Shown: piece by piece, positions 3,200-26,726 of the stretch
How positions within the stretch are numbered: the first letter of the stretch is position 1
Layout: each line of letters opens with the position of its first letter
IMG/VR virus record: IMGVR_UViG_3300031993_000012
Location: 32,001-96,000 of that record
Direction: 5' to 3' (one strand)
From: a virus
Taxonomy: Duplodnaviria; Caudoviricetes
DNA length: 64,000 nt
Made by a program: the position numbers and the translations under genes
The notes under the pieces: model-generated
What the model was told of the DNA's origin: nothing
The model's database searches: none
What the model saw: only the letters and a program-made list of their open reading frames with translations

Positions 3200-3204
3200 T
3201 TTGT

Positions 3205-3285
3205 GGATGTGTGGCGGAATGGCAGACGCGCTGGTCTCAAGTACCAGTTCCGAAAGGAGTGAGGTTTCGAGTACCTCCACATCTA
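3205..3285 (+). tRNA. tRNA-Leu(CAA)
   Basis: GGATGTG/CACATCT acceptor, CTGGT-CTCAAGT-ACCAG anticodon arm, long variable arm, GAGGT-TTCGAGT-ACCTC T arm; no encoded CCA. Confidence 0.9.
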
Positions 3286-3393
3286 TTACTGGGGTTACGT
3301 TTATATTACGGCTTCTGACTTTGCGGTTCATTGCGTAACTCCAGATCACCCCTAAAACCCGGGTAGCCTTTGCGTATCTACCCGGGCAAAAAA

Positions 3394-3507
3394 CGACGGA
3401 TAACTCAGTAGGTAGAGTACGTAAAGGAATCTAGATTTAGATTCGTACAGCAATCAGCTTGCATTCTAAGCACGGTGTCGTAGGTTCGAGTCCTACTCCG
3501 TCGACCA
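3394..3507 (+). ncRNA. tRNA-like gene with 38-nt insertion in anticodon stem (TCT/Arg anticodon if removed)
   Basis: Perfect acceptor CGACGGA/TCCGTCG+ACCA, D and T arms; insert 3423-3460 splits CGT|GC; residual arm CGTGC-ATTCTAA-GCACG. Confidence 0.75.
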
Positions 3508-3963: not shown

Positions 3964-4570
3964 GTGACATTAGCGCAGTCGGTAGCGCATTCGCTTTAAA
4001 GGAGAAATAATATGGAATTATCAACACATGCTAAAGGAGTTGTAACAGAATTAGCTGTACAACAAGCATTCATTAAACATGGATTCGGCGTATCAGTCCC
4101 AGTGTTACCCACTTCTAGATATGACATGATTGCTGATATTGATAGCAATTTATTCAAAGTCCAAATTAAAACAGCTAAGAAACTTCCAAATTCAGATGCC
4201 TTTATGATCAGAACGAAATCAACTAGAACACATCGATACGGTGTATCCGTTGTTAAATATACAGCGGATGAAATTGATATGTTTGCTACATGTTATAATG
4301 GTGATGTCTATGTTGTTCCACAATATTTAGCACAAGGAACTGAATTCATTTTTAGAAATTCATCAGCGAGTAACCAGAAAGTTGGTATTCATTTTGCATC
4401 TGATTTTAAGTTGGATAATGTTGTTGAAAAATGGAGAAATCAATCATTATCATTCAACAATAACCAACTTTATTTGAATAATAATGTATTATGATTATAT
4501 GATATTATTCAAATATAATAATTATCCTTTAAAGCGTGGGTCGTGGATTCGAGTTCCACATGTCACACCA
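3964..4570 (+). tRNA. tRNA gene interrupted in its anticodon loop by an endonuclease ORF
   Basis: 5' half GTGACAT-TA-GCGC-AGTCGGTA-GCGC-A-TTCGC (3964-3994); 3' half GCGTG-GGTC-GTGGA-TTCGAGT-TCCAC-ATGTCAC-ACCA (4534-4570); acceptor halves perfectly complementary. Confidence 0.8.
4012..4494 (+). CDS. PD-(D/E)XK endonuclease, PDDEXK_5 / I-Ssp6803I-like homing endonuclease family
   Basis: KG..TE...F.K.G..VS.P.....RYD.I.D......VQIKT pattern; RBS AAAGGAGA. Confidence 0.8.
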   Translation: MELSTHAKGVVTELAVQQAFIKHGFGVSVPVLPTSRYDMIADIDSNLFKVQIKTAKKLPNSDAFMIRTKSTRTHRYGVSVVKYTADEIDMFATCYNGDVYVVPQYLAQGTEFIFRNSSASNQKVGIHFASDFKLDNVVEKWRNQSLSFNNNQLYLNNNVL

Positions 4571-5602: not shown

Positions 5603-5677
5603 TTCCGTATCGCCAAGGGGTTAAGGCAGATGTCTTTGAAGCATCTATCGCTCGTTCGATCCGAGCTACGGAAACCA
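5603..5677 (+). tRNA. tRNA-Gln(UUG)
   Basis: TTCCGTA/TACGGAA+ACCA, GATGT-CTTTGAA-GCATC anticodon arm, GCTCG-TTCGATC-CGAGC T arm. Confidence 0.92.
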
Positions 5678-15205: not shown

Positions 15206-15396
15206 ACAGAACCCTCCTTGATAATATAATTATATTAAACCATTGTACAATTATCTAGAATTCTTAAATTCTATATTTATATAATTCTTATGTATAATAG
15301 GAAAGTAACACTTTCTATTATCATATAATATCAATCTTTACGGGTTGTTCCCAGTGTATCTGTACAGATATGCGAATAACAAGAAAGGAGTACGTT

Positions 15397-16176
15397 ATGG
15401 CACGTACAAAGAAAACAACAGTAGAGGAAGCAACTGAGGAGAAGGTTGCATTCCAGCCCAAGAAGACAGTGAAGCTGTTCTTCTTCACAGAAATCCTTGG
15501 AAGCTGCCCCGCAGACAAGGAGATCTACTCAAAGTACATCGCAAAGAATCGTCTTGATGCACCAACCATTCAGGACGAACTCCAGATGGTACCTGAGGAA
15601 GAAGTTATCGAGCAGGGAACCACTTGCTTCCTGGTGAGGACCCACGGAAAGGATAAGGGTAAGCCCTGTCTGGCAGCGTATACAATTCTCGGTTTCATGA
15701 AAGAGAAGACCAAGTATCTCCGTCAGGAACCCGGTAATGGATTTGACAAATTCACCAACTACAAGTCCAAAATCGATGGTAATTTCAACATTGATAAACC
15801 GTTCATTACATTACATCTTCCCGAAGGAGAAGAAATGGGTATCTGTCAGAGACCTCTCAGGGCCGAGACTGCGCAGGGTCCGAGAGTAGCACTCGCTTCC
15901 AGCCTCACATGCCCTCCCGGTACAACCTGCGAATTCGAGCTCTATATCAATAACAAGGAGTTCAATAAGTACGCAATCGGTTGTCTCCGTAAAGGTTTCC
16001 TCAGTGGAACCGGTCAGTGGCGTTCTTCTCAGCAGAAAGGCAGATTCCTGTTTGAAATCTATGATGCTGATGATACTTATATTGACGGTAATACCAAAGA
16101 ACATGTAGGTTGTCTTTCAACTGATGCCAACTGGGAAGAAATGTGGAGCGACTTCCTCGACGAATATCGTCTGTAA
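15397..16176 (+). CDS. solitary Cas7/RAMP-like protein
   Basis: N-terminal strand KLFFFTEILGS, helix ILGFMKE, thumb-like RPLRAETAQGPRVAL, PGT.CEFEL, and C-terminal Gly loop GFLSGTGQWRS...GRF typical of RAMPs; RBS GAAAGGAG. Confidence 0.75.
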   Translation: MARTKKTTVEEATEEKVAFQPKKTVKLFFFTEILGSCPADKEIYSKYIAKNRLDAPTIQDELQMVPEEEVIEQGTTCFLVRTHGKDKGKPCLAAYTILGFMKEKTKYLRQEPGNGFDKFTNYKSKIDGNFNIDKPFITLHLPEGEEMGICQRPLRAETAQGPRVALASSLTCPPGTTCEFELYINNKEFNKYAIGCLRKGFLSGTGQWRSSQQKGRFLFEIYDADDTYIDGNTKEHVGCLSTDANWEEMWSDFLDEYRL

Positions 16177-16190
16177 TACCTAATACCAAT

Positions 16191-16220
16191 AATGAGCGCG
16201 GATAAAACCGCGCTCATTTT
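16191..16220 (+). terminator. intrinsic terminator / processing hairpin
   Basis: AATGAGCGCGG-ATAAAA-CCGCGCTCATT-TT. Confidence 0.75.
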
Positions 16221-16250: not shown

Positions 16251-17263
16251 GTGTAAAGTAAAGTCGAGTTAGGTTCAGTATTGGTTCAGTGGAGTTAAGT
16301 CTAGTCATGTACAGGTGTTGTGGAGCGGCGCTGTGTTTGGGTGATGCAAAGCGAAGTCTTGCTTAGGTATAGTACGGTATTGTCCCGTATGGGTATGATA
16401 ATGTTCCGCAAAGCACAGTGAGCTTTTGTAACGGTAAAGCTGAGTATTGCAGCGTTGAGGTATAGTCAAGTATGGTTGTGTGCTGTATAGGTCGGGCGAA
16501 GTTTCGTTCTGTATAGTGACGGTATAGTTATGAAGCGTAGCGTAGAGGTATGGCACGGTTACGCGCTGTACAGGCATAGTATGGTATCGTTATGTCATGG
16601 CACTGCATTGTGGTGTCTGGCATTGGCAATGCAAAGTAACGCGAAGCATTGGTGCAGTGAGGTGTTGTTCTGTGAAGGCATCATTATGAATCGTATTGTA
16701 ATGTGTGGATTTAGCTCGGTCTAGTTTTGTCCGGTGACGGCGTAGTAATGTTAGGCGAGGCGATGCAAAGGTGTCGTGCAGTGAAGCACCGTTTAGGCAT
16801 GGTAAAGCATAGCTTTGTTTAGGTGCGGCTGAGTCTGGTCCGGTTTTGTGAAGGTGCAGCAGGGTTCCGTGGTGCACTGTGGCGTAGAGTATCGGTATAG
16901 TCACGTAAGGTTTGGTATAGGCATGGTGTAGTAAAGCATAGTTGTGGTATAGCTATGCATCGTAAGGTTTGTATTGGTATAGTGTAGTCCTGTAACGCTG
17001 AGCACTGGTGTAGCGAGGTATTGCTCTGTCGAGTGGTGGTAAAGCATGACAAGGTAATGTTGAGTAGAGGTGAAGTGAAGTCTTGCGGGGTTTTGCTGTG
17101 GTACTGTGATGCGACCTATTGCTTTGTATTGGTACAGCTCAGCACTGTAATGTCGTGTCAGGTTCAGGTACAGTTTAGCCAAGTGAGGTGGAGTATAGTA
17201 TAGGTATAGATATGTACAGTCAAATGCTGTCAAGGTTAAGCTGAGTAAAGTCTACTTCTGTAA
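16251..17263 (+). repeat. nested pentamer array 1: about 34 units of G(GYNNN)n, putative guide-RNA array
   Basis: Hand parse, e.g. GGTGAT-GCAAA-GCGAA-GTCTT-GCTTA|GGTATA-GTACG-GTATT-GTCCC-GTATG; G/T-rich, C-poor plus strand. Confidence 0.9.
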
Positions 17264-17294
17264 TGAGTAAAATATAACGAAAGGAGTCTTATCC

Positions 17295-17696
17295 ATGAAA
17301 GATAAGAAAATCAAGAAAGTTTTGAAGTCGATTCAAAACGGAGAAATCTCAGCCAAACAACTGAAAGAAATCCTTGCTGAAAACCCCGAACTCAAAGACA
17401 TCATTGACTTAGTGAATCCTGAAGTCACATGGAAGAAACATCCAATGTATCCGTTCGTGGAAACATCGAGCAATGGTCAGATTAAAGTTTCTGGTGAACT
17501 TGTAAAGCCACGGGTATGGGATGGCTTGTTGAAAGTAACGCTGCAGTATGGCAAGAAACGGTTATACGCAGCGTTACTCATATTACAATGCTGGGAACCA
17601 TGTCCGGGTAAATTAACCGACTATACTGTCGGTTACATTGACGATAACGTCAATAACCTAAAGCCGTCTAATCTATATTGGAAGGCCAAAAAATAA
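17295..17696 (+). CDS. NUMOD4 + degenerate (probably inactive) HNH domain protein
   Basis: E.TWK...YP..ETSSNGQIK (NUMOD4-like); VGYIDDNVNNLKPSNLYW aligns to V.H.DG...NN...NL.W with His replaced by Tyr; RBS AAAGGAG. Confidence 0.7.
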   Translation: MKDKKIKKVLKSIQNGEISAKQLKEILAENPELKDIIDLVNPEVTWKKHPMYPFVETSSNGQIKVSGELVKPRVWDGLLKVTLQYGKKRLYAALLILQCWEPCPGKLTDYTVGYIDDNVNNLKPSNLYWKAKK

Positions 17697-17708: not shown

Positions 17709-19010
17709 GTGTAAAGTAAAGTGTGGTTCTGTCGTGTTTTGGCATAGCAATGTGTGATATCGTTTCGTATTGGTAAAGCAGAGCATAGTGTAATGCTGTG
17801 AAGGTATGGTAGGGTAAAGTAACGCAAAGGTATCGCGTTGTTCAGTGATGTGACGGTTTGGTAGGGTAATGTAGTGTGTAGCTATGGCATAGCGATGTTC
17901 TGTGAAGTGCGGTCGCGTATTGGTATCGTAAAGTATTGCGGTGTCGCGTAGAGGTTTAGCTTGGTGCTGTATAGTACTGGTGGAGCATAGTTAGGCACAG
18001 CTGGTCTTTGTTTTGTGCTGGTATGGTATGGCGTAGTATAGTCTGCAACGGTGTAGCAAAGTAGCGCGGTGTTCAGGTATAGTGATGATAGTTTTGTTCT
18101 GTATCGGTAAAGTGCTGTATTGCTGGGTAATGGTATTGTATTGTCGCATATTGTCTTGTGAGGGTGAAGGGCAGTATTGTCGCGTAGAGTAGCGGCAAAG
18201 CATAGTGATGTCGCGCAGCGTCATGGTAAAGTCAAGTGATGCTATATGGTGTCAGGTGATGGTAATGTGGGGCAATGTGTAGTATAGTAGAGGCGAAGTC
18301 TAGCGATGCTAGGTTCTGGTGTAGTATAGTACCGGAACGTCTAGTATTGGTACAGTGGAGTACAGCGTTACGAAGTGCTGGTACTGTTAAGTGATGTGTA
18401 GTGTCGGTATGGTAATCCGTAGTGTAGTAGAGGTAATGTGGGGTGTGGCACTGTATAGGTGTGGTGTAGTGTTGTATCGTAATGTCAGGTAATGGCAACG
18501 TAGTACATGGCAATGGTTCAGTGTAGTGCCGCATAGTCACGTAGAGGTTTAGTCTGGTGCCGCATGGTCAGGTTGCGGTTTAGCCTAGTTTCGCTTAGTC
18601 CAGGTAATGTTAAGTCTAGTGTAGTTTTGGTTCAGTGATGTGTGAAGTAATGGTATAGCAATGTCTGGTACTGGTATGGTATAGTCACGTGAAGTGTCGG
18701 TTTGGCGGAGTAAGGTTTAGCTCAGTGATGGCGTGGTAGAGTAAAGCGCGGCACATCGTCGTAATGGCGTAGTCTCGTATAGTATAGTAAAGGTAAAGTG
18801 AAGTATAGTGCTGTAATGTGCCGGTGAGGCAAAGCAAGGTCCCGCTTGGTATTGGTTTGGTGCAGTCAAGTTATGTCACGGTAACGCAGTACATAGTAAT
18901 GTATGGTACAGGCTCAGTTCAGTAGAGCTATGTTTTGGCGAAGCGGGGTATTGTCAAGCGTAGTATGGGTTTCGCAGGGTCCTGTTATGCATTGTGTCGG
19001 TGCTGTGTGA
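17709..19010 (+). repeat. nested pentamer array 2: about 45 units of G(GYNNN)n
   Basis: Same grammar and same first 14 nt (GTGTAAAGTAAAGT) as array 1. Confidence 0.9.
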
Positions 19011-19033
19011 CAGCATTAAAAACCTACACACTT

Positions 19034-19076
19034 AAAAAAAGAATATTCCCGGGTCGCTCCCGGGTATTCTTTTTTT
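19034..19076 (+). terminator. intrinsic terminator after array 2
   Basis: A7-GAATATTCCCGGG...CCCGGGTATTC-T7. Confidence 0.75.
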
Positions 19077-19115: not shown

Positions 19116-19928
19116 ATGGCAACTGTATTACAACCAGACCGAGTTGTTACATGTAACGGAGTCAAGGTAAATCAATATTTTCTGACCGTGAACAATCCAT
19201 TTCATATTGATATGCCTACATCGGAAATGAATAAAGTCATTGGTGTAACAATTCACAATACCGATTGGATATCTGTTATCCAAGGTAGTACACCCGCAGA
19301 GCAATATACACGTGCAACCGTCAATGGTAATATGAATGATGTCCGTGTTCATTATTATGTTGATGATAAATGTGCATGGCAAAATTTACCATTGAATCGT
19401 GCAGGATGGCATGCTGCTGATGGTAAAGGTGATGGTAACAGAAAGACAATCGCTATTGAATGCATCATGTCACCAAATTACAATGGTATCGATCAAGCAT
19501 CAGAATTAAACTGTGCACGTTTGGCTGCGTATTTACTCCATGAATACAAACTCGATATCAATCATTTGTATACACATACACATTGGTTGAATGTTAAAAA
19601 TGGTAAACGTGGTGATGTTGATTTTTTGAATACGGATCCCAGCCCCGAGAAACGGTGCCCTTTGTATATTCTTCCACATTGGAATGAATTCAAAGAAAAA
19701 GTTCATGATTATTTGAATGAACTGAACAATGGTAATGAAATCAATCATACAAATGATATGATATATTTGAAACAAGGAACTCCGATATATCCGAACGCGG
19801 GTGTGAATACCAGAATGAGTGGAATAATAAAAACATCATGCAAATATACAATCGTTGAAAGACGTACTGCATATGGTATAACATGGGGTAGATTAAAATC
19901 AAATAAAGGATGGGTTAAATTGAAATAA
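19116..19928 (+). CDS. endolysin, N-acetylmuramoyl-L-alanine amidase (Amidase_2) with C-terminal SH3-like domain
   Basis: VTIHNT, VHYYVDD, WHAADG..GN..TIAIE, THTHW, K.CP; C-terminal YTIVE....WGRLKS.KGWV. Confidence 0.92.
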   Translation: MATVLQPDRVVTCNGVKVNQYFLTVNNPFHIDMPTSEMNKVIGVTIHNTDWISVIQGSTPAEQYTRATVNGNMNDVRVHYYVDDKCAWQNLPLNRAGWHAADGKGDGNRKTIAIECIMSPNYNGIDQASELNCARLAAYLLHEYKLDINHLYTHTHWLNVKNGKRGDVDFLNTDPSPEKRCPLYILPHWNEFKEKVHDYLNELNNGNEINHTNDMIYLKQGTPIYPNAGVNTRMSGIIKTSCKYTIVERRTAYGITWGRLKSNKGWVKLK

Positions 19929-24677: not shown

Positions 24678-26726
24678 ATGTTCAATTATAATATCGATAC
24701 CGAGGTTAATGAATCAGAGTTCGATGACCTCAGAGAGATGGATGAAATAACCGACGTCGATCAGTTATTGGAGTTAATTGGTGTGCCTGTGATTATCAAC
24801 AGGCACATTTCCGACATTGAAACATTCATGAGAAGAGTTGTGGATATTGCAGTAATGTGTTGGAGTAATGATGATGGAAATGGCGATACACTTGAGCATA
24901 CTAGAATCAATTTTAAAGTATCCGCTGAAAGTGTTGTTACATATTCATTACCATTGAACGCATTCATGTTCTTTCTCATATTCATCAATCCGATAATCAA
25001 ATACGTTGAAGACATCAAGATTGAAGATTTCATATTTGAACCACCATTGATTGAGAAAGAAACGATTGCGATTATCAATCGTATCATGAGAGTATTACAA
25101 CAGTTCATGCATCCAATGTCTGAGATATACGAAGTAATCGCAAATGTTCTGTTATATATGTCTGAGCTTAACAGAATATTTGGTCAAGCATGTATCCAAA
25201 TATTTACGACTGAAAATCTGTTTCTTGACCATTACAGAGAATCTGCAATCATTCGTGATATCAATAATACTGTATATCCACGTAACATGCAGACTGCAGA
25301 TATTGTTGAAGAAAACAGTAAACGTTTCATATTGTTACGTGATGAAATGATTAAACGTGGAAATCCGTTATTCATAGATGATCGTTTCACACGTATACTC
25401 AAACAGAAACAGATTGAAGAATTGTTCATTCATTTCGGTCAGATACCAGATGGACGTAATATTGTCAATGTTCAAATGAATGGTAATGGATTCAACGATG
25501 GATACAAGGATCCGGAAGTAATTTATGCGGCAGCAATTGCAGCACGTGTTCCGGATTTGATGAATGCTGACTATATGGGCGTGGTTGGATACTTTGCACG
25601 AAACTTGTGGATTCTCACATACGGAACAATATCCAAGAAAGTAAACGATTGTGGTTCAAAGAATCCGATTCCAATTGTGATTGATGAATCCGCACTCAAG
25701 ATGTTCGATGGACGTTATTATTATAAAAATAAACACGATGGAATTCGTCGTGTGTTCCATAAAACAGATACGCATCTTTTAGGTCAACAGCTCTGGTTCC
25801 GTTCACCATGTACATGTAATCTGAACAATGATGTTTGTCATATATGTTATGGTAATGCAGCATTGCGTGTCAAAGATTTCAACGGTGGATTTGTATGTAC
25901 AACACAATTCATGACAGGACCAATCAATCAGAATGTTTTATCAGCAAAACATTTATTGAAAGCAAATGCGGAACTCATTGTATTTACCAATAATCTGGAT
26001 AAATATTTCGAAATGGATTCCTGTCAACTTTCCGTCAAAGAAGATGTTAAGAAGTTTGATATATTCATTCGTGAAGATTATATGGATGACATCACCGAGA
26101 AATTCGAAATGTTTATTGGTAAGAATATGGAACCAATCACCATTACAAATTACGCAAATATCAATATCAGCAAAACCGTATTATCCAAAGCAAAGATTAT
26201 ATCAATCGACGATGTTAATTATTATCGTATCAATTCATCAAAGGTTGAAGATGATCTGTGTACACTGACTCCAATCAATAAAATGATGACAGAGAAATAC
26301 CTGAAGATGATGCATCTGTTAGATAATAACATTGTTAAATATGATAATGTATCTGACGTTGTTACAGAGCTTTATCATTTACTTGATGGAACAATACCGT
26401 TATTATCAACACATGGAGAAATCATCATTGGTTGTTTACTCCGTAATCATGAGAATCCAATGCGTCGTCCGAATTGGTTGAATTATGATGAACCGTATCA
26501 GATGGTACGTGTTAAAACCGCATTGTCGAATACGGATTCATTCACAGAAGCAGTTGCATCTGAACAAACAAATCATCATCTTCGTCATGCTGTATTCGAT
26601 CGTCGTAATACAATCAATAAAATCGGTGCACGCTCATTCATTGACTTCTTATTCGGTTATACCAGAAAAGATATGACAGAAAAAGAACTTGCAGAAACAA
26701 TGAAAAGCAACGGTTGGATATTATAA
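24678..26726 (+). CDS. phage multisubunit RNA polymerase beta-prime C-terminal subunit
   Basis: Bridge-helix-like GYFARNL, DCGS, zinc site RSPCTC...VCHICYG, trigger-loop-like QNVLSAKH; no DxDGD in this fragment. Confidence 0.85.
   Translation: MFNYNIDTEVNESEFDDLREMDEITDVDQLLELIGVPVIINRHISDIETFMRRVVDIAVMCWSNDDGNGDTLEHTRINFKVSAESVVTYSLPLNAFMFFLIFINPIIKYVEDIKIEDFIFEPPLIEKETIAIINRIMRVLQQFMHPMSEIYEVIANVLLYMSELNRIFGQACIQIFTTENLFLDHYRESAIIRDINNTVYPRNMQTADIVEENSKRFILLRDEMIKRGNPLFIDDRFTRILKQKQIEELFIHFGQIPDGRNIVNVQMNGNGFNDGYKDPEVIYAAAIAARVPDLMNADYMGVVGYFARNLWILTYGTISKKVNDCGSKNPIPIVIDESALKMFDGRYYYKNKHDGIRRVFHKTDTHLLGQQLWFRSPCTCNLNNDVCHICYGNAALRVKDFNGGFVCTTQFMTGPINQNVLSAKHLLKANAELIVFTNNLDKYFEMDSCQLSVKEDVKKFDIFIREDYMDDITEKFEMFIGKNMEPITITNYANINISKTVLSKAKIISIDDVNYYRINSSKVEDDLCTLTPINKMMTEKYLKMMHLLDNNIVKYDNVSDVVTELYHLLDGTIPLLSTHGEIIIGCLLRNHENPMRRPNWLNYDEPYQMVRVKTALSNTDSFTEAVASEQTNHHLRHAVFDRRNTINKIGARSFIDFLFGYTRKDMTEKELAETMKSNGWIL

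What the first reader, a model, noticed from the sequence alone, without database searches (positions are those of the whole stretch)
16251..17263. Two-level grammar: 5-nt period punctuated by one extra G, giving 26/31-nt units
Seen by hand parsing: units are G(GYNNN)n with n mostly 5 or 6 (range about 4-8), e.g. GGCAAT-GCAAA-GTAAC-GCGAA-GCATT|GGTGCA-GTGAG-GTGTT-GTTCT-GTGAA. I found no two identical units. Anchor deviations are mostly G to A (AT/AC), indels are rare, and the strand is C-poor. Junctions are biased (GTATT|GGT, GTAGA|GGT, |GGTATA). Inference: the register is under selection while NNN content varies freely, which is unlike a microsatellite. The +1 G could mark guide boundaries or cleavage sites, giving 10-18 informative bases per unit. 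C depletion would keep the RNA unstructured.
Basis: partly seen in the sequence, partly recalled or inferred. Interest (0 to 1): 0.88.

Follow-up and report, generated by a model that had tools for sequence, protein, structure and literature searches.

The report
Phage VIPR guide-RNA array, staggered type
The odd five-letter rhythm with an extra G every 26 or 31 letters is real. It is the guide-RNA array of a VIPR system, a CRISPR-like, phage-borne RNA-guided DNA-silencing machine first described in 2026. This makes it a large new example of a recently known kind, not a new kind.

Summary
Window 16252-17264 is 34 units of the form G(GYNNN)n, mostly 26 nt (n=5) or 31 nt (n=6). A second array of about 45 units lies at 17710-19009. 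G-G autocorrelation peaks at lags 5, 26, 31, 57 and 62. A two-level test pattern matches 38 times against 0 in shuffles.

The gene just upstream (15370-16176) has a Cas7/Csm3-type RAMP fold. Its family sits next to such arrays in 92 of 112 array-first IMG/VR loci and 73 of 77 protein-first loci.

This matches VIPR systems: a Vipr RAMP protein plus vrRNA pentamer repeats (bioRxiv 10.64898/2026.04.26.720920 and .720927). Those preprints already list YNNNG-type repeats and "staggered" arrays offset by 1 nt.

New here:
- The 5n+1 rule holds across more than 100 loci.
- The G-loop reads Q-W-R instead of SUSP1's D-W-R, which fits a relaxed first G.
- Related strains differ by 5-nt and whole-unit indels.
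- The phage carries about 79 units.

No RNA data and no targets were found. The idea that C depletion keeps the RNA unstructured is not supported.

The parts
15370..16176 (+). vipr-like gene (268 aa): a small Cas7/Csm3-type RAMP protein with G-loop GTGQWRSSQQKGRF
   Evidence: AF2 model has pLDDT 81, and the top 50 Foldseek PDB hits are all Cas7/Csm3/Cmr4/Cas7-11. The family profile hits type VII Cas7 at 3e-5. The family lies next to period-5 arrays in 92/112 and 73/77 loci. There is no Pfam, PHROG or NCBIfam match.
16191..16218 (+). 11-bp GC-rich hairpin between the vipr stop codon and array 1; a weak terminator or processing element
   Evidence: The T-run on the + strand is short. Most related loci have no such hairpin and the array starts about 15 nt after the stop codon.
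16251..16264 (+). 14-nt leader GTGTAAAGTAAAGT at the start of array 1
   Evidence: This 14-mer occurs only at 16251 and 17709 in the whole 182-kb record.
16252..17264 (+). Array 1: 34 units G(GYNNN)n, candidate staggered vrRNA array
17295..17696 (+). 133-aa NUMOD4/HNH-like ORF with the catalytic His positions replaced (AAL for HRL, VGYID for V-H-ID); candidate accessory protein or domesticated homing endonuclease
   Evidence: phrog_959 'HNH endonuclease' at 6.7e-11; sequence; weak tblastn match to a Lactobacillus phage HNH. It is kept intact at about 83-95% identity in contigs of other runs. It is not a recurrent neighbour in other loci.
17709..17722 (+). Second copy of the 14-nt leader
17710..19009 (+). 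Array 2: about 45 units with the same grammar
19001..19015 (+). Small hairpin TGCTGT-GTG-ACAGCA at the array end
   Evidence: read
19048..19076 (+). Intrinsic terminator (CCCGGG stem followed by a T-run) closing the module

Best explanation
This is a VIPR (Viral Interference Programmable Repeat) system in a bovine-gut jumbo phage. It consists of one vipr-like RAMP gene and two long arrays of pentamer-repeat guide RNA (vrRNA) on the same strand.

Shown:
- The RAMP fold of the protein.
- The tight, widespread link between this protein family and period-5 arrays.
- The 5n+1 grammar.
- Slower evolution of the G and Y anchors than of the N positions.

Inferred by analogy with the solved SUSP1 VIPR:
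- The region is transcribed rightward.
- One protomer binds each pentamer and holds the G and the pyrimidine through its thumb and G-loop. The thumb R-P and the G-loop W-R are conserved.
- The variable bases are presented for gapped pairing with double-stranded DNA of competing mobile elements, which silences them.
- Q replaces the G-loop Asp that reads the first G in SUSP1. This fits repeats of the form NGY-NN (written YNNNG in the preprint) instead of GGY-NN.

My model for the second level: a cooperative filament advances in 5-nt steps. The extra G therefore throws the next anchor out of register, ending one filament of 4-8 protomers (5 or 6 here, about one helical turn) and starting the next. 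The phase slip itself would be the punctuation, with no tail, handle or ribozyme. Whether the units are then cut apart is not known.
For: Grammar and statistics.

Protein:
- RAMP fold and profile hit to type VII Cas7.
- The family holds 2,626 clusters (at 50% identity) at E<=1e-3 and 1,077 at 1e-30.
- Three copies are predicted to pack head-to-tail: ipSAE 0.46, best control 0.00. That mark was reached by 20 of 30 proteins solved as pairs and 1 of 23 solved as single chains. Runs agree in at least 42% of contacts and partner pLDDT is at least 67. Cas7 filaments are solved, so this pass may reflect likeness only.

Linkage of gene and array:
- The family is immediately upstream on the same strand (median gap 13-15 nt) in 92 of 112 array-first loci.
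- A period-5 G array is adjacent in 73 of 77 protein-first loci: 56 downstream, 9 upstream, 7 both, plus 1 downstream with the upstream side off the contig.

Unit lengths over all loci: 31 (322), 26 (309), 36 (163), 21 (123), 41 (62). In the protein-first strict arrays, 97% of units are 5n+1 and the extra base is G in 150 of 179.

Literature I read:
- Vipr plus GGY/NN vrRNAs, seven types, alternative NNNGG/YNNNG/NNNNG repeats, staggered arrays with 1-nt offsets, HNH-type vap genes.
- Structure: one protomer per repeat; G1 read by H17 and D177, G2 by R138 and W178, Y3 by R179; 6 subunits per turn in the binary complex and 5 in the ternary.
- Non-canonical motifs such as WGT/NN.

Direct check on SUSP1: GGYNN arrays flank its 195-aa gene. 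hhalign aligns its GVGDWRPRFGRF with our GLGQWRNSGxGRF. Q216 is invariant in A1.

Strain variation in contigs of other runs is by pentamers and cassettes: +5, +5, -5, two 31-nt skips, and one net loss of 98 nt equal to units 17922+17953+17979.

No Cas1 is present, and only one vipr gene is in the record.
Against: - Sequence similarity to the characterised type II Vipr is marginal: hhalign probability 33%, and only over the G-loop. The family profile finds nothing in the SUSP1 genome. Placement inside the Vipr clade therefore rests on fold, G-loop motif and array context, not on a tree.
- The units are short. They have 5-6 repeats against 9-16 in the characterised vrRNAs, and they lack a 3' tail or pseudoknot.
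- Under the published two-base rule a unit specifies only 10-12 positions. 14 of 72 units find a perfect match by chance in the phage's own 182 kb, the same as shuffled units. Single-unit specificity is therefore doubtful.
- I could not see figure S18, so the equation 'staggered = 5n+1' is my reading of its legend.
Confidence: 0.85

Rival explanations
1. Same protein and RNA, but the array is not a set of separate guides. It is one continuous kilobase-long RNP filament, and the extra nucleotide once per helical turn relieves strain. It serves as a scaffold, a sponge, or a very long composite guide that reads one contiguous target.
For: - Units of 5-6 repeats equal the 5-6 subunits per turn of the SUSP1 filament.
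- No tails, ribozymes or promoters lie between units.
- Single units carry little information.
Against: - Across loci n ranges from 4 to 8, and some phages favour 36/41 nt. That fits poorly with one fixed helical geometry.
- Strains gain and lose whole units, as expected for independent cassettes.
- The preprint describes staggered arrays as sets of processed vrRNAs.
Confidence: 0.1
2. A DNA-level element. The mean period of 5.17 nt is half a helical turn (10.3 bp), so the tract could be a protein-wrapping or R-loop-prone region. Examples would be a replication origin or a zone of primase start sites of the GYN type.
For: - 26/5 and 31/6 give 5.17-5.2 nt per unit.
- GC skew is 0.3-0.44.
- T4 and T7 primases use GTT/GCT/GTC sites (my own knowledge, not tested here).
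Against: - The strand asymmetry, the fixed orientation relative to the RAMP gene (87 of 94 on the same strand) and a partner with an RNA-binding fold all point to a transcript.
- Position 3 is not T-enriched, as T4-type primase sites would need.
- The same arrays occur in about 40-kb phages of 32-69% GC next to the same gene.
Confidence: 0.03
3. A decaying pentanucleotide microsatellite without function.
For: Period 5, and local duplications such as the period-31 match at 18515-18621.
Against: - All 81 units are distinct.
- Tandem Repeats Finder detects almost none of it.
- Anchors are conserved 2-3 times better than the N positions between contigs.
- The 5n+1 rule recurs in unrelated phages.
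Confidence: 0.01

Closest known systems
Type II VIPR of Escherichia phage SUSP1 (Vipr + vap1 + vrRNAs); bioRxiv 10.64898/2026.04.26.720920 and .720927
   Same: - A small phage-encoded RAMP sits next to non-coding tracts of 5-nt repeats whose G and pyrimidine are fixed and whose other bases vary.
- The G-loop W-R and the thumb R-P are conserved.
- There is no cas1 and no CRISPR array.
- I confirmed the SUSP1 arrays and gene directly.
   Different: - SUSP1 has four separate vrRNAs of about 100 nt, each with 9-16 GGY-NN repeats and a conserved pseudoknotted 3' tail.
- Here about 79 tail-less units of 4-8 repeats abut one another, offset by one G.
- The first G is fixed only in the first repeat of a unit.
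- The G-loop Asp is Gln.
- There is no vap1 homologue.
- Protein similarity is marginal.
'Staggered vrRNA arrays' and alternative YNNNG repeats, listed in the same preprint (fig. S18 legend; type-classification methods)
   Same: The legend says individual vrRNAs derive from positions offset or overlapping by 1 nt, the end of one marking the start of the next. YNNNG is the unit seen here.
   Different: - The preprint says only the ribozyme-interspersed and single-vrRNA architectures were confirmed by small-RNA sequencing, not the staggered ones.
- The text I could read gives no unit-length rule, no targeting rule for YNNNG repeats and no protein determinant.
Non-canonical VIPR-like clusters (for example WGT/NN and TGH/NN) found by a genomic language model; bioRxiv 10.64898/2026.10.21.760802
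   Same: Period-5 arrays with a degenerate first position lie beside a Vipr-like fold. In the window the base before GY is A or T in 70% of repeats.
   Different: Those clusters are described as about 10 repeats per element. No second-level punctuation is mentioned in the passages I read.
Cas7 backbone of class 1 CRISPR effectors (Csm3/Cmr4 of type III, Cas7 of type VII)
   Same: Best structural and sequence matches. One protomer per short RNA segment, with the thumb flipping bases.
   Different: - CRISPR Cas7 steps by 6 nt without base specificity.
- It needs a repeat-derived handle, Cas5/Cas10 or Cas14 partners and a repeat-spacer array. None of these is present here.

Membership tests
VIPR system | Small (about 20 kDa) stand-alone RAMP protein with RRM core, thumb and glycine-rich loop | tested here: met
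   The 268-aa protein has a core of about 200 aa. The AF2 model is Cas7-like. The G-loop GxGQWRxxGxGRF aligns with the SUSP1 GVGDWRPRFGRF.
VIPR system | The protein belongs to the Vipr clade, separate from Cas5/6/7 | tested here: inconclusive
   No tree was built. hhalign to SUSP1 Vipr gives probability 33%. The profile finds no match in SUSP1. The best PDB sequence hit is type VII Cas7 at 3e-5. Vipr structures appear to be absent from the PDB copies searched.
VIPR system | Adjacent non-coding tandem pentamers with conserved GGY, or a related consensus (YNNNG, NNNGG, NNNNG), alternating with variable bases | tested here: met
   G 96%, Y 98%, three variable positions. Anchors evolve 2-3 times more slowly than N positions.
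VIPR system | Minimal locus: no cas1/cas2, no CRISPR array; phage-borne | tested here: met
   No Cas1 in the record and no CRISPR-like repeats. The record is an IMG/VR virus with phage genes.
VIPR system | The array is transcribed and the RNA co-purifies with the protein | not testable with these tools
   No RNA run is listed for this DNA.
VIPR system | Variable bases match natural DNA targets under a gapped (1-nt skip) rule | tested here: inconclusive
   No enrichment over shuffled guides under eight rules, in the phage's own genome or in 1.3 Mb of related loci. One 8-repeat unit scanned in IMG/VR gave 14 chance-level hits. The search space was too small for a fair test.
VIPR system | Accessory vap gene | tested here: not met
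   No recurrent partner gene in 112 loci. The HNH-like ORF is unique to this phage lineage. This is not fatal: by my count of the preprint's text, six vap families serve seven types, so one type may lack a vap.
CRISPR-Cas type III / VII | Repeat-spacer array, Cas5 and Cas10 or Cas14 partners, 6-nt Cas7 step | tested here: not met
   Period is 5, not 6. There are no long direct repeats. No conserved partner gene is present.
Type III toxin-antitoxin RNA arrays (ToxI-like) | Tandem near-identical repeats of about 36 nt next to an endoribonuclease toxin gene | tested here: not met
   All 81 units differ. The neighbouring protein has a RAMP fold.

The most novel reading that the evidence does not exclude
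In this large VIPR clade the guide boundary is encoded only by a one-base phase slip. Filaments of 4-8 protomers delimit themselves by register, with no handle, tail or ribozyme. Because the pocket for the first G is relaxed (Asp to Gln), all three variable bases per repeat may be read. That would be a different code (15-18 informative bases per 26/31-nt unit) from the published two-base, one-skip rule.
Probability: 0.25. Interest if true: 0.7.

Novelty: new member of a known kind. Interest (0 to 1): 0.35.

Why it matters
VIPR was described only in 2026 and is proposed to be older than CRISPR. So far only the tailed GGY-NN type has been studied by experiment.

This locus and its more than 100 relatives give a clean statement of the second-level grammar of the untested "staggered" type: units of 5n+1 nt with the extra base G. 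They also offer a candidate protein determinant for the relaxed first G, and natural evidence that units are gained and lost as cassettes.

With about 79 units, this phage would be a rich source of guides for working out what such short units can target.

Tried and rejected
- Rfam at gathering thresholds found only tRNAs.
- blastn of the region against GenBank phages, in near and distant modes, found nothing.
- The 14-nt leader proved too unspecific as an IMG/VR probe.
- Two literature searches on pentanucleotide periodicity gave nothing relevant, as did one on Cas7-like filaments. The lead to VIPR came from the scan's earlier notes.
- Coding was rejected: period 5, and NNN triplets read as codons show 16 stops against 21 expected. 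Long open frames in high-GC arrays are what that composition gives.
- A specific conserved fold was rejected.
- No RNA holder is listed.
- Target searches: eight skip rules showed no enrichment. One perfect NNNx self-match at genome 177492-177510 is at the level of shuffled controls. The IMG/VR scan for unit 16853 gave chance-level hits.
- Exact-sequence look-ups of three family members gave short or DNA-less contigs.
- No supplementary files are held for the preprint.

Full report
**What is in the sequence**

Window 16252-17264 is non-coding, G-rich and C-poor (G 32%, C 13.5%). It has a strict two-level rhythm.
- G-G autocorrelation is twofold at lag 5. It fades at lags 10-20 and returns to twofold at lags 26 and 31, and again at 57 and 62. 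A coding control is flat.
- A dynamic-programming parse gives units of one G followed by n pentamers GYNNN. Array 1 has 14 units of 26 nt and 14 of 31 nt, plus a few of 36 or 41.
- The same grammar continues at 17710-19009, with 19 units of 31 nt and 15 of 26 nt.
- Both arrays open with the same 14-mer, which occurs nowhere else in the 182-kb record.
- Anchor G is 96% and Y is 98%. The extra base is G in 94% of units. All 81 units differ.
- A pattern spanning one junction matches 38 times against none in 100 shuffles.

**Surroundings**

The module is bounded by a hairpin after the upstream gene and by a clean terminator at 19048-19076. Between the arrays lies a 133-aa HNH/NUMOD4-like ORF whose catalytic histidines are replaced.

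The host record is an IMG/VR virus from a bovine gut metagenome, estimated 68% complete. It has a split RNA polymerase distantly like those of AR9, PBS1 and phiR1-37.

**The key link**

By information content, fewer than one hit was expected. These loci hold arrays of 0.3-2 kb with the same grammar.

Clustering the flanking ORFs gave one family of about 210 aa. It is present in 92 of 112 loci, on the array's strand, ending a median 13-15 nt before the array. The window's ORF 15370-16176 is a member.

The family has no Pfam, PHROG or NCBIfam model.
- Its profile hits type VII Cas7.
- Its AlphaFold model (pLDDT 81) matches only Cas7/Csm3/Cmr4/Cas7-11 chains among the top 50.
- It comprises 2,626 clusters at 50% identity in 1.8 billion proteins.

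To remove ascertainment bias I fetched 80 loci by protein alone. Of 77 with usable flanks, 73 have a period-5 G array next to the gene. Control windows inside the gene never exceed 1.25 on the same score, where the threshold is 1.6.

Unit lengths across all loci are 31, 26, 36, 21 and 41, in order of frequency, so always 5n+1.

**What it is**

- VIPR pairs a small phage-encoded RAMP (Vipr) with vrRNAs made of GGY/NN pentamers. The NN bases pair with DNA while skipping every third target base, and the complex silences competing phages and satellites.
- The methods list alternative NNNGG, YNNNG and NNNNG repeats.
- The legend of fig. S18 describes "staggered" arrays whose vrRNAs are offset by 1 nt, the end of one marking the start of the next.
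- The text says only the ribozyme-interspersed and single-vrRNA architectures were confirmed by RNA sequencing.
- A second group reports non-canonical motifs such as WGT/NN.

I confirmed the reference case directly. SUSP1 carries GGYNN tracts around a 195-aa gene.

**How it probably works**

In the SUSP1 structure there is one protomer per repeat. G1 is read by H17 and D177, G2 by R138 and W178, and Y3 by R179 of the next protomer. The filament has six subunits per turn, or five when bound to DNA.

hhalign aligns the SUSP1 G-loop D-W-R with Q-W-R in our family. The Gln is invariant in A1, and the thumb R-P is kept. That fits arrays in which G2 and Y3 are fixed but G1 is free, although this is an inference from two cases.

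Three copies of the window's protein are predicted to pack head-to-tail: ipSAE 0.46 against 0.00 for the best control. That mark was reached by 20 of 30 proteins solved as pairs and 1 of 23 solved as single chains. Runs agree in at least 42% of contacts and partner pLDDT is at least 67. This may reflect likeness to solved Cas7 filaments.

A filament that steps by 5 nt would lose register at the extra G. I therefore read the slip as the punctuation that ends one short filament and starts the next.

In-phase GGY also occurs inside units, in about 18% of repeats. The boundary is therefore the slip, not the GG as such.

**Evolutionary tests**

Between homologous arrays of different contigs the anchors differ at 4-6% of sites and the three N positions at 11-13%. 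The 624 matches used are not independent of one another.

Contigs from four other runs carry relatives of this locus. The genes are alignable but the arrays are reshuffled:
- insertions of 5 nt at 16545 and 18514;
- a 5-nt loss at 18187;
- 31-nt skips at 17735 and 18342;
- a net loss of 98 nt that equals three consecutive units.

**Limits**
- No RNA data exist for this DNA.
- No targets emerged under any of eight skip rules, in a small search space.
- Under the published rule a 26/31-nt unit specifies only 10-12 bases, which is too few to be unique. The code for this clade is therefore open.
- The arrays are not predicted to be less structured than the rest of the genome.
- No accessory gene is shared across the clade. 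Neighbours are early-region genes such as SSB, Bro-N and XRE. By my reading this suggests the preprint's vap-less type.

**Verdict**

This is a real and striking pattern. It is explained as a staggered, YNNNG-type VIPR array with its RAMP gene, so it is a new and large member of a kind published in 2026.

Noticed in passing
window 24678-26726 (+): A 682-aa RNA polymerase beta'-like protein, about 25% identical to those of Bacillus phages AR9 and PBS1, Yersinia phiR1-37 and Staphylococcus jumbo phages. The host phage is a distant relative of the jumbo phages that carry their own multisubunit RNA polymerase.
   Followed up: partly
window 3394-3504 (+): Rfam calls a tRNA spanning 111 nt that ARAGORN does not report, which suggests a tRNA with an insertion. 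Ordinary tRNA-Leu and tRNA-Gln lie at 3204-3286 and 5603-5677.
   Followed up: no
proteins P0001 (458 aa) and P0002 (432 aa): The two best hits of the family profile are double-length proteins, each with two matched stretches. They look like tandem fusions of two Vipr-like domains.
   Followed up: no
L256:3640-4250: In one relative, a gene whose translation carries typical HNH motifs sits between the vipr-like gene and its array, and the array starts only near 4250. This echoes the HNH-like ORF between the two arrays of the window. It was read by eye and not scanned against a library.
   Followed up: partly
L294, L303 and seven other loci: In 9 of 77 protein-first loci the period-5 array lies upstream of the vipr-like gene only, and in 7 it lies on both sides. 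The gene-then-array order is therefore usual but not fixed.
   Followed up: partly
window 19116-19928 (+): An Amidase_2 (N-acetylmuramoyl-L-alanine amidase) gene, probably the endolysin, follows the VIPR module directly.
   Followed up: no
window 18822-18968: The 3' end of array 2 has no counterpart in any of the four other runs laid. Two runs carry 283 different letters in its place, so this is the most variable part of the locus.
   Followed up: partly
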